From contig NW_021834245.1 of NCBI RefSeq assembly GCF_006345805.1, positions 1-50,512 of the forward strand: a DNA stretch of 50,512 nucleotides. Reading direction: 5' to 3'. This document shows positions 21,113 to 34,740 of the stretch, piece after piece. Every line of letters starts with the position of its first letter. The first letter of the stretch is position 1. The notes below the pieces were generated by a model. That model worked only from the letters and a program-made list of their open reading frames with translations, was not told the DNA's origin and made no database searches. The stretch is from Octopus sinensis. Lineage: Eukaryota. Both the position numbers and the translations under genes were made by a program.

Positions 21113-21730
21113 GGTGTAGGAGTGGCTGTGTGGTAAGTAGCTTGCTTACGAACCACATGGTTCCGGGTTCAGTCCTACTGTGTGGCACCTTGGGCAAGCG
21201 TTTTCTACTATAGCCTTAGGCCGACCAAAGCCTTGTGAGTGGATTTGGTAGACGGAAACTGAAAGAAGCCCATCGTATATATGTATATATATGTATAGTT
21301 AATCCAAACAAGAAAGCACAAAAAAACACAACAACGTGAGGACATGGAACAAATATAGTATTATTGGACACTCAGGAAAGAAGGAAAGAAGGAAGGTTTA
21401 ACGTTTCGAGCGGAGCTCTTCATTGGAAACATAGGAGAAGGAAAGATCCAGAGAAGGGAAGACAGAGGAAAAAAAATCGCCAACGGTACACAGGCAGTCA
21501 CGTTTTGCATATATGCATGTGTGTGTGTATATGTTTGTCACCCCAACATCGCTTCACAACCGATGCTGGTGTGTTTATGTCCCTGTAACTTAGCGGTTCG
21601 GCGAAAGAGTGGGATAGAATAAGCACTAGGCTTACAAAGAATAAGTCCTGGGGTCGATTTGCTCGACTGAAAAAAAGGCGGAGCTCCAGCATGGCCACAG
21701 TCAACTGACTGAAACAAGTAAAAGAGTAAA
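21113..21730 (+). mobile_element. Full-length SINE family A carrying a nested Penelope-like element
   Basis: Head, (TA) spacer interrupted at 21297-21506, complete tail. Confidence 0.9.
21297..21506 (-). mobile_element. About 200-bp Penelope pseudo-LTR-like element, copy 2
   Basis: Matches 3911-4112. The minus strand reads CCAATGA-A-GAGC-TCC-GCTC-GAAACGTTA. Confidence 0.65.
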
Positions 21731-21826
21731 TACCTCATCGAAATTTCAAAGCTCTGAGATACTGTTTGGTTGATTCAGAAATGCGAATAAAGGAGCATTA
21801 CATTTGATGGAATAATCTAAGGGTTC

Positions 21827-22802
21827 AAGGCAGCGAGCTGGCAGAAACGTTAGTATGCGGGGCAAAACGCATAGCCATATTTCGTCTGCCGTTACGTTCT
21901 GAGTTCAAATTCCGCCGACGTCGACTTTGCCTTTCATCCTTTCGGGGGCGATTAAATAAGTACCAGTAAACACACTGGGAGTCGATATAATTGACTTAAT
22001 CCGTTTGTCTGTCCTTATTTGTCCCCTCTGTGTGTAGCCCCTTGTGGGTAGTAAAGAAATAGATATTTCATCTGCCATTACGTTCTGAGTTCAAATTCCG
22101 CCGACGTCGACTTTGTCTTTCATCCTTTCGGGGTCGATTAAATAAGTACCAGTAAACGCACTGGTGTCGATGTAATCGACTTAATCCGTGTGTCTGTCCT
22201 TGTTTGTCCCCTCTGCGTGTAGCCCCTTGTGGGCAGTAAGGAAATAGGTATTTCATCTGCCATTACGTTCTGAGTTCAAATTCTGCCGACGTCGACTTTG
22301 TCTTTCGTCCTTTCAGGGTCGATTAAATAAGTACCAGTAAACGCACTGGGGTCGATATAATCGACTTAATCCGTTTGTCTGTCCTTGTTTGTCCCCTCTG
22401 TCTGTAGCCCCTTGTGGGCAGTAAAGAAATAGGTATTTCATCTGCCATTACGTTCTGAGTTCAAATTCCACCGACATCGACTTTGCCTTTCATCCTTTCG
22501 GGGTCGATTAAATAAGTACCAGTTACGCACTGGGGTCGATATAATCGACTTAATCCGTTTGTCTGTCCTTGTTTGTCCCCTCTGTGTGTAGCCCCTTGTG
22601 GGCAGTAAAGAAATAGGTATTTCATCTGCCATTACGTTCTGAGTTCAAATTCCACCGACATCGACTTTGCCTTTCATCCTTTCGGGGTCGATTAAATAAG
22701 TACCAGTTACGCACTGGTGTCGATATAATTGATTTAATCCATTTGACTGTCCTTGTTTGTCCCCTCTGTGTGTAGCCCCTTGTGGGCAGTAAAGAAATAA
22801 GA
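21827..22802 (+). mobile_element. SINE family C: one head plus five tandem 184-186 bp bodies
   Basis: Units start at TATTTC 21878, 22064, 22249, 22434 and 22618. They are flanked by the direct repeat GAATAATCT(A/G)AGGG(T/C)TCAAGG at 21810-21830 and 22801-22821. Confidence 0.92.
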
Positions 22803-23251
22803 ATAATCTGAGGGCTCAAGGGCAGAACATAGAGAGTTCCTTTTATCTTGAATTTGTTTTTACTCAGAGTATCTGTTGCGTAGGCGAATTACTTTCGCTC
22901 AATTGTACTTTACATGATGTAAACCGCACTCAGTGTTTGTTGCAGCATACATAATCAGATCAAGTGGATTAACAACAACAATAACAAAGTTGACATTCAA
23001 AGAAGTGAACCATCAACATGACTAATAACAGTAAAATTCGGCAAAGCAACAGGCCTTTATGTGGTCACTTAGCTTGCTAGAAATAGCAGCCAGATACCCC
23101 AGAAATGCCACTCTATTGTCTTTAGTAAAATACACATTGGATAACGTGGTCCTGGATTCCTAACATATGGGATAAAGACAAGATGGTCGTGGCTGGAATA
23201 CCTTTGATCACAGTTCAGTTTGGACTTATATTTGAAGATATATAAAGATAT

Positions 23252-30308: not shown

Positions 30309-31520
30309 AGGCATGGCTGTGTGGTTAAGGAGGCTTGCATTGCAAAGCCATGCCGTTTCAGTTTCAATCCTACTGCATGGCACATTGGGCAAGTGTCTTC
30401 TACTATATATTTCATTACTACCCGCAAGGGGCTAAATACGGAGGGGACAAACAAGGACAGACAAACGGATTATGTCGATTATATCATCCCCAGTGCACAA
30501 CTGGTACTTAATTTATCAACCCCGAAAGGATGAAAGGCAAAGTCAACCTCAGCGGAATTTGAACTCAGAATGTAGCAGCAGACGAAATACCTATTTCTTT
30601 ACTACCCACAAGGGGCTAAACACAGAGGGGACAAACAAAGATAGACAAGCGGATTAAGTCGATTACATCGACCCCAGTGCACAACTGGTACTTATTATTT
30701 AATCGACCCTGAAAGGATGAAAGGCAAAGTCGACCTCGGCGGAATTTGAACTCAGAACGTAGTGGCAGACGAAATACCTATTTCTTTACTACTCACAAGG
30801 GGCTAAACACAGAGGGGACAAACAAGGACAGACAAACGGATTAAGACGATTACATCGACCCCAGTGCACAACTGGTACTTAATTTATCAACCCTGAAAGG
30901 ATGAAAGGCAAAGTCGACCTCGGCGGAATTTGATCCCAGAACGTAACGGCTGACGAAATACGGCTATGCATTTCACCCGGCATGCTAACGTTTCTGCCAG
31001 CTCGTCGCCTATGTATCTTCTACTATAGCCCCAGGGTCAATCAACACCTCGTGAGTAAATTTGCTAGTTGGAAATTGTACAGAAACCCATCACATGCTTG
31101 TGTGCACGCATGTGCATGTGTGCGTGTGTGTGCATGCACGTGTGTGCATACTTGCACTCATGTGTTTGTGTCTGTGTTTATTACCCTACCCCCCCTCCAG
31201 TGCTTGACAATCTATGTTGGTTTGTTTATGTCCTCATAACTTAGTTGGGTAGCAAAAGACATGGATGGAATAAGCACCAGGCTTGAAAAAACCTAACAAA
31301 TTTTCTAGGGTAGATTTGTTGGCGTTAGGAAGGGCATCCAGCTGTAGAAACTCTGCCAGATCAGATTGGAGTCTGGTTTGCCAGGCCTCAGTCAAATCGT
31401 CCAACCCATGCTAGCATGGAAAGCAGACGTTAAATGATGATGACGATGATGATGATAATGATGATGAAAACCCTTCAAGGCAGTGCCCAACCACAGTCCC
31501 ATGACTGAAGCAAATAAAAT
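30309..31520 (+). mobile_element. SINE family A hosting a family C trimer and an RTE tail (31318-31467)
   Basis: Head 30309-30407, resumes at 31013, final tail AAGGCAGTGCCC...ATGACTGAA at 31478-31520. Confidence 0.8.
30408..31010 (-). mobile_element. SINE family C: one head plus three tandem bodies
   Basis: Junctions GAAATAC|CTATTTC at 30590/30591 and 30777/30778. Flanking duplication GT(G/A)TCTTCTACTATA at 30393-30407 and 31013-31027. Confidence 0.92.
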
Positions 31521-34469: not shown

Positions 34470-34740
34470 CTGTTGTACATACTGGCATGGGTTGGATGGT
34501 TTGACCAGGGTTGGCAAAGCTGGAAGGCTGCATCAGACTCCAGTCCAATTCGCAATGATTTTCTATGGTTGGATGCCCTTCCTAACACCAACCACTCCAA
34601 GAGTGTAATGGGTGCTTTTACATGCCACTGGCAATGGTGCCACGACTGCGATTTTGCTCGGCTTGATGGGTCTTCTTCTCAAGCACAACATAATGCCAAA
34701 GATCTCAGCTACTTTGCCTCTGTGAGGCCCAACATTCGAA
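34470..34740 (-). mobile_element. RTE 3' fragment
   Basis: Matches 4150-4320 and 4710-4800 of the RTE. Confidence 0.8.

What the first reader, a model, noticed from the sequence alone, without database searches (positions are those of the whole stretch)
21810..22821. SINE inserted as head + five head-to-tail 185-bp bodies inside one target-site duplication
Seen: one family C head, five bodies joined at GAAATAG|(G/A)TATTTC, and a 21-bp direct repeat (2 mismatches) around the whole array. The head can form a hairpin (GGCGAAAT..loop..ATTTCGTC), and the junction lies at the loop/3'-arm boundary, between the A and B boxes. Inference: the SINE RNA has a defined processed or stall point there. Multimers would then arise during reverse transcription, either by template jumping between processed RNAs or by rolling around a circularised 185-nt RNA. 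That would resemble retrozymes, but I see no hammerhead in the unit. Variants shared by units 2-3 and by units 4-5 suggest some later local duplication as well.
Basis: partly seen in the sequence, partly recalled or inferred. Interest (0 to 1): 0.78.

Follow-up and report, generated by a model that had tools for sequence, protein, structure and literature searches.

The report
SINE that inserts into older self-copies
This five-unit array is one of tens of thousands in the genome where a short jumping element is joined to itself at one fixed internal point, likely because young copies insert into older resident copies guided by sequence matching and the longer arrays then likely grow by local duplication, not by rolling around a circular RNA.

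Summary
The array is real: one head, five 184-186-bp bodies, one 21-bp target-site duplication (TSD) with 2 mismatches. The same junction occurs at least 30,733 times genome-wide; 93 of 100 listed have identical spacing. Units of dimers differ as much as units of unrelated loci, so no rolling circle. The junction reads GG although this locus's own head reads CA there. Last units and TSDs are old, first units young (49 of 57 arrays ending in an older subfamily). Full-length copies sit inside older copies at the same point with host bases duplicated (15 of 24). A second tail variant joins at a second point (2,767), each matching that variant's ordinary genomic target. The sense site is used 48 times more than an antisense site with the same four bases. 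Best reading: homology-guided retrotransposition into resident copies with seamless joining (inferred), then local duplication; unit 4 here is a hybrid of units 5 and 3. Partner LINE not found. New variant of a known kind; interest 0.66.

The parts
21810..21830 (+). left copy of the target-site duplication (last 3 bases overlap the SINE 5' end)
21828..21875 (+). SINE head, positions 1-48, decayed 'C-type' head with an A-box-like motif (box label recalled, not from a call)
21876..22061 (+). body unit 1 (position 49 to tail end), B-box-like motif, central domain, T-type tail
22062..22246 (+). body unit 2, junction GAAATA-GA-TATTTC in front
22247..22431 (+). body unit 3
22432..22615 (+). body unit 4: 5' half identical to unit 5, 3' half 1 base from unit 3 (product of local duplication)
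22616..22799 (+). body unit 5, last unit, C-type tail followed by AGAA, the usual target start of that tail type
22801..22821 (+). right copy of the target-site duplication
30408..31010 (-). second array of the same family in the window: head plus three bodies, same GG junction, own TSD starting TATAGTAGAAGA

Best explanation
The array is one member of a family-wide class in which a young SINE is joined at position 49 to another family copy inside one TSD, likely because young SINE RNA is reverse-transcribed into older resident copies at that point and likely joined by homology at both ends, after which arrays such as this one likely lengthen by local duplication. Steps: (1) shown: the family picks targets that match what follows its tail: T-type tails start TSDs with GGTA, C-type tails with AGAA, C-type heads with TATA. 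(2) shown: the SINE's own head holds GGTAT at position 49 and AGAAA at position 16, and full-length copies are found inserted at position 49 with host bases duplicated. (3) inferred: bodies have no Pol III stop, so transcripts of a junction-bearing locus run on into the next unit and carry a long 3' extension that pairs with any resident copy; priming then happens at or inside the shared region and the junction is copied, not re-made, which explains its invariance and the 48-fold excess over the antisense site. (4) inferred: the 5' end of the cDNA anneals to the host head (or a duplicated head collapses later), leaving one mixed head and no new TSD. (5) shown for unit 4, inferred for the rest: slippage or unequal exchange adds units and homogenises long arrays.
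For: Age asymmetry: in 57 arrays ending in the older B1 subfamily the first unit diverges 0.047 (young monomers 0.043, n=104) and the last 0.086 (B1 monomers 0.088, n=72); last older in 49, younger in 5. Same for arrays ending in the older C-type tail (0.037 vs 0.054; 30 vs 11 of 44; order T-then-C in 34 of 63 dimers, reverse in 1). TSD age follows the last unit: 1.14 mismatches per 11 nt for arrays ending in B1 (28 called of 45), 0.69 ending in C-type (16 of 36), 0.20 ending in T-type (15 of 24); T-type monomers 0.47 (30 of 53). Last B1 units are as unrelated to each other as B1 monomers (median nearest neighbour 0.098 both), so they are independent hosts, not copies of a few dimer masters. 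Direct intermediates: 122 matches of host head fragment plus new full head against 12 at a control site; in 15 of 24 loci the fragment recurs after an inserted tail, in 10 with a non-consensus host base. Exchange at both ends: host base T64 kept in the first unit in 11 of 58 against 2 of 67 (p=0.006); donor base C62 in the last unit in 24 of 58 against 6 of 58 (p=0.0002); heads intermediate in age. All 231 non-terminal units carry the young tail; 0 of 221 older tails run into a body. Tail variant predicts junction: C-type in 3 of 100 at position 49 and 87 of 100 at position 16 (read from the listings). Sense site 23,627 vs antisense GGTAC site 492 with patterns of equal length; 5 of 10 antisense loci show a TSD. 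No run of four T in the unit.
Against: The TSD clock is coarse: B1 monomers (0.64) do not differ significantly from T-type copies (p=0.16), and arrays ending in B1 score higher than B1 monomers (p=0.03), which I cannot explain. Only 2 of 126 headed arrays keep a visible host head plus new head (3 flagged, 1 a chance match), so the seamless route is inferred from ages and mixed bases, not seen. Head age did not correlate with either unit's age across loci (rho 0.11). Arrays ending in a T-type tail show no age gap (0.043 vs 0.045, n=29) and may be whole-multimer insertions. At this locus all five units share one rare base, so the array no longer shows an old host and young inserts; 8 of 63 dimers also share 2 or more rare variants (null 0.6%). 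The 48-fold figure includes junctions made by local duplication and whole-multimer copying. The partner LINE was not found. Loci come almost all from contig C1 and were picked by pattern, not at random.
Confidence: 0.6

Rival explanations
1. Reverse transcriptase starts on the RNA of an older copy at a new site and switches by homology to a junction-bearing young RNA, so each mixed array is made in one event.
For: Explains young or mixed heads, variable crossover points and old last units (decayed source loci). R2 reverse transcriptase jumps templates (PMC13586686, passages seen).
Against: Predicts young TSDs; they are not young (1.14 vs 0.20-0.47 per 11 nt, p=6e-5). Needs many decayed older loci to be mobilised late. 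Does not explain host head plus TSD plus full new copy, host base T64 in first units, or heads older than those of young monomers.
Confidence: 0.15
2. A few multimer source loci are transcribed through all units and retrotransposed whole; unit number then varies by unequal exchange.
For: A head plus three bodies inserted as one piece with a TSD (L178). No Pol III stop in the unit. T/T dimers show no age gap. For the window array in particular (all units share a rare base) a homogenised source array is possible, about 0.3 in my judgement.
Against: Last B1 units are mutually unrelated and old; last units come from at least five tail classes; the rare base of the window array is in 0 of 27 loci of its own subfamily.
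Confidence: 0.1
3. Junctions spread by DNA-level ectopic gene conversion: a break in a resident copy is repaired on a multimer elsewhere, copying one junction and body in, with no reverse transcription.
For: Gives old host, old TSD, mixed heads, invariant junction and sense-only excess, as seen.
Against: Does not make the full-length inserts with TSD at the same point. Donors should be of any age, yet inserted units are as young as young monomers. The rise of the position-49 junction goes with the young subfamily across related organisms.
Confidence: 0.1
4. A processed 185-nt RNA is circularised and reverse transcriptase rolls around it (retrozyme-like).
For: Fixed junction at a loop edge; tail end is complementary to the 3' arm so the junction can fold as a small hairpin; long arrays are homogeneous.
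Against: Dimer units differ by 0.087 and 0.114 against 0.099 and 0.122 between loci (n=56); mixed subfamilies in one array; nested, position-dependent variants in the window array; GG at junctions under a CG-type head; every array starts with a head a circle would lack; no ribozyme.
Confidence: 0.03

Closest known systems
SINE-derived satellites of squamates (Vassetzky et al. 2023, PMC10702118; abstract, part of Results and the Discussion read)
   Same: Tandems of part of a SINE with a longer terminal unit; homogeneity rises with array length; unit 115-185 bp.
   Different: There, unit boundaries vary, arrays lean to subtelomeres and origin is ascribed to duplication by unequal recombination, with insertion into the same locus only mentioned. 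Here one junction is dispersed over at least 30,733 places, arrays are short and TSD-bound, and units are of different ages.
Tandem multimers of full-length SINEs (Dip/B1 in jerboa) and dimeric SINEs such as Alu (as summarised in the Discussion of PMC10702118)
   Same: A large share of copies is multimeric.
   Different: Units here lack the head; the last unit is an older, unrelated copy, not a fixed partner.
3'-microhomology-guided target choice of RTE, L2 and CR1 retroposons (Nishiyama and Ohshima 2018, PMC6007223; abstract and one Discussion section read)
   Same: The RNA 3' end overlaps the start of the TSD and tail variants go with different TSD starts.
   Different: There one to several bases from a microsatellite tail; here the preferred start (GGTA) is the element's own internal sequence, and the T stretch ten bases upstream was not seen.
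R2 retargeting by RNA homology arms (STITCHR, as reviewed in PMC13586686; passages seen)
   Same: Template RNA homology steers where a non-LTR reverse transcriptase inserts.
   Different: Engineered, autonomous element; here a natural non-autonomous element whose extension matches its own family (inferred).
Non-LTR retrozymes (Cervera and de la Pena 2020, PMC7229834; abstract and outline seen)
   Same: Short tandem units of 170-400 nt.
   Different: No hammerhead, Pol III-type head present, units not clonal.
Gene conversion of older Alu copies by younger subfamilies (recalled, no call)
   Same: A resident copy is partly overwritten by a younger one, flanks unchanged.
   Different: Here a whole extra body is added at a fixed point.

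Membership tests
tRNA-derived SINE | short, interspersed, over 100 copies | tested here: met
   84,161 exact tails; 61,275 exact head sites
tRNA-derived SINE | TSDs around copies | tested here: met
   38 of 81 monomers, 42 of 83 multimers, 6 of 492 shuffled
tRNA-derived SINE | head derived from a tRNA with A and B boxes | tested here: inconclusive
   box-like motifs seen by eye (consensus recalled); ARAGORN and Rfam found no tRNA
tRNA-derived SINE | 3' tail shared with a partner LINE | tested here: inconclusive
   no shared tail in 50 reverse-transcriptase loci of 150 listed
tRNA-derived SINE | transcription by Pol III | not testable with these tools
   reads lie equally on both strands
Named octopus SINEs (OK, OR1, OR2) or a named central-domain superfamily (CORE, Meta) | sequence match to the published consensus | not testable with these tools
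   consensus files could not be read; the guess of an octopus host is recalled
Non-LTR retrozyme | hammerhead ribozyme in the unit | tested here: not met
Non-LTR retrozyme | circular monomer RNA | not testable with these tools
   no RNase R or small-RNA run offered
Non-LTR retrozyme | clonal units from rolling-circle copying | tested here: not met
SINE-derived satellite | tandem of part of a SINE with extended terminal unit | tested here: met
SINE-derived satellite | homogenisation rising with length | tested here: met
   adjacent units of arrays of 4 or more share 2.42 private variants vs 0.20 (40 pairs)
SINE-derived satellite | long arrays, subtelomeric bias | not tested
   longest of 472 arrays had 9 units; position not analysed
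Dimeric SINE family (fixed master) | position-specific units of equal age from few masters | tested here: not met

The most novel reading that the evidence does not exclude
A natural RNA-guided homing system among SINEs: read-through transcripts carry their downstream flank as a 3' guide, so target choice is inherited with the flank (GGTA, TATA, AGAA lineages); once the flank became the element's own sequence, the family gained a long guide to hundreds of thousands of resident copies and writes one extra body into them without a scar, seeding satellites.
Probability: 0.4. Interest if true: 0.82.

Novelty: new variant of a known kind. Interest (0 to 1): 0.66.

Why it matters
About 4 in 10 young tails (12 of 30 picked by tail alone) and about a quarter of one older subfamily (20 of 72) are in such junctions, so self-targeting is a main route of this family, not an accident. 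It gives a testable path from dispersed SINE to tandem repeat, warns that copy ages and subfamily calls are mixed within one TSD, and points to a LINE reverse transcriptase that may accept RNA homology for scarless insertion, a property sought in genome writing.

Tried and rejected
Ribozyme or known RNA: nothing above chance in Rfam; no tRNA gene; head plus unit 1 folds no better than shuffles (z -0.62). Partner LINE: 30 top reverse-transcriptase loci and 20 chromosomal ones (CR1-like and RTE-like by my reading) share no tail. RTE upstream T stretch not seen in 68 targets. Head-to-unit age correlation uninformative. RNA: no RNA holder listed by index; three raw RNA-seq runs from organism G showed no pile-up of starts or ends, equal strands, and almost none of the C-type head, with 49-56 reads at the position-49 joint against 543-1,069 at position 16; these libraries cannot test a short processed or circular RNA. 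Literature: ten searches listed no paper on this family's multimers or on a SINE targeting a fixed site in its own copies; the library lacks most subscription papers, the octopus genome paper was not held, and supplements with consensus sequences could not be read or gave no hit, so the family may be named and the tandems noted elsewhere. Earlier scan notes: nothing shown. Rows dropped: hits under 46 model positions or with a poor B-box anchor (538 to 505), arrays near locus edges (311 to 301), 6 of 30 loci and 3 of 30 as neighbours within one array, low-complexity flanks in the TSD clock.

Full report
Observation. The window holds, at 21810-22821, one SINE head (21828-21875), five bodies ending at 22061, 22246, 22431, 22615 and 22799, and a 21-bp direct repeat with 2 mismatches. 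Positions below count the A at 21828 as 1; each body restarts at position 49. A second array (head plus three bodies, own TSD) lies at 30408-31010 on the minus strand. No ribozyme or tRNA was found.

The junction is a family trait. A tail-gap-B-box pattern matches 30,733 places; of 100 listed, 93 have identical spacing, 4 a 1-nt indel and 3 one extra tail repeat, and none joins elsewhere in the range covered, about positions 41-71. Exact tails number 84,161; of the first 30, 12 run into position 49, 2 into position 16 and 16 are terminal. In 1.25 Mb of fetched, pattern-picked sequence I built 472 arrays: 306 monomers, 126 dimers, 29 trimers, 11 longer. TSDs enclose whole arrays as often as monomers (42 of 83, 38 of 81; null 6 of 492).

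Arrays are mosaics of different ages. The family has a young tail class (C, with T-type and older C-type variants) and older classes B1, B2, B3. All 231 non-terminal units carry the C tail, last units are C 83, B1 58, B2 11, B3 2, other 12, and none of 221 B tails runs into a body. Units of a dimer differ nearly as much as units of different loci, which excludes rolling on one circle. In 57 arrays ending in B1 the first unit is as young as C monomers and the last as old as B1 monomers (0.047 and 0.086 against 0.043 and 0.088). The last B1 units are mutually unrelated, so they are not copies of a few dimer masters. TSD decay follows the last unit (1.14, 0.69 and 0.20 mismatches per 11 nt for B1, C-type and T-type endings), although this clock is coarse and does not separate B1 from T-type monomers. 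Of 72 B1 copies picked by tail alone, 20 carry a C unit in front.

The junction point is a DNA target. In ordinary DNA, 33 of 89 terminal T-type tails are followed by GGTA and 0 of 54 C-type tails; C-type tails are followed by AGAA in 18 of 54. With TSDs validated, B-type heads with T tails start at GGTA in 7 of 10, C-type heads at TATA in 9 of 15 and GGTA in 1. The SINE head itself holds GGTAT at 49 and AGAAA at 16, and a second junction class at 16 has 2,767 matches, 87 of 100 listed with C-type tails, against 3 of 100 at position 49. A host head fragment followed by a new full head matches 122 times against 12 at a control site; in 15 of 24 loci the fragment recurs after an inserted tail, in 10 with a host-specific base, 3 of these of the CpG kind that can recur by chance. 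T-type copies also enter the family's antisense GGTAC site, with a TSD in 5 of 10 loci. This is the 3'-overlap behaviour described for RTE, L2 and CR1 elements (PMC6007223), here aimed at the element's own sequence.

Why so many, and why seamless. The sense site is used 23,627 times against 492 for the antisense site, and only 2 of 126 headed arrays keep two heads. Four shared bases cannot give that excess. The unit has no run of four T, so a junction-bearing locus should be read through, and one whole trimer insertion shows such RNAs are used (L178). In arrays ending in B1, donor bases appear past the junction (C62 in 24 of 58 last units against 6 of 58 monomers), host bases persist in the first unit (T64 in 11 of 58 against 2 of 67), and heads are intermediate in age with the young head type in 10 of 46 against 1 of 39. 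I infer priming on the host strand within the homologous extension and homologous joining at the head; the junction is then inherited, which fits GG in 178 of 199 junctions and CG in 1, also under heads that read CG. Tandems of the 65-nt head piece (L157-L165) look like the reciprocal product of exchange between duplicated heads. RNA-level switching and DNA-level conversion remain rivals; whole-multimer copying contributes.

This locus. All five units carry a base found in 6 of 409 other units and in 0 of 27 loci of the same subfamily, with nested sharing (2-5, 1-3, 2-3, 4-5). Unit 4 is identical to unit 5 over positions 51-141 and differs from unit 3 by one base over 142-232, the mark of a tandem duplication out of register. 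So the array was homogenised and lengthened locally, as long arrays generally are; how its first GG junction arrived can no longer be read here, and a homogenised source array is possible.

Other organisms. Contigs of organisms C and D hold the young head marker (14%) and mostly the position-49 joint; those of E and F nearly lack the marker (0.1% or less) and favour position 16, with position 49 present but rarer; the tool did not count all joints. RNA reads of organism G behave like E and F. The position-49 burst thus goes with the young subfamily and older copies were there first.

Known kin and verdict. Closest are squamate SINE-derived satellites and multimeric SINEs (PMC10702118), microhomology-guided insertion (PMC6007223), homology-steered R2 (PMC13586686) and retrozymes (PMC7229834), which it is not. 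My ten searches listed no report of a SINE homing to a fixed site in its own older copies, within a library that lacks most subscription papers. The family name, its tRNA source and its partner LINE are not established; an octopus host is my recalled guess. New variant of a known kind; interest 0.66; most novel reading (inherited RNA guide, scarless self-homing) probability 0.4, interest 0.82.

Noticed in passing
L157-L165 (G000:C1, about 194.2-195.6 Mb) and further rows: Tandem repeats of a 65-67-nt piece made of the head plus the first bases of the body, up to five or more copies, in front of a full element; 99-nt versions in L182-L188.
   Followed up: partly
genome-wide: Second junction class at position 16 (2,767 exact matches), used by the older C-type tail and dominant in organisms E, F and G.
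   Followed up: yes
L365-L374: Antisense insertions of the family into its own central domain at GGTAC, with TSD.
   Followed up: partly
window:30408-31010: Trimer whose three units share two uncommon bases, under a C-type head and a TATA target.
   Followed up: partly
window:41789-41972: Headless body starting just before position 49 on the minus strand, next to an unrelated 84-bp two-copy repeat at 41982-42143.
   Followed up: no
junctions: 12 of 199 junctions have decayed to a run of four T right after the tail, which would end a Pol III transcript with a 7-nt match to the position-49 target.
   Followed up: no
L316-L333: A young CR1-like LINE family (89-99% protein identity among copies) ending in a stem-loop and (ATT)n; older SINE classes B2 and B3 also end in (ATT)n but share no tail sequence with it in this comparison.
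   Followed up: partly
L285-L314: The best reverse-transcriptase hits cluster on small unplaced contigs and differ from the chromosomal LINEs; one lies next to rDNA-like sequence (L289). They may come from another organism in the assembly.
   Followed up: no
window:8778-9461 and 34704-35112: Minisatellites with 43-bp (16 copies) and 42-bp (9.7 copies) units.
   Followed up: no
window:2496-49960 (families D18, D19): Another dispersed repeat family, 6-8 copies of about 200-230 bp, one at 21498-21725 just upstream of the array.
   Followed up: no
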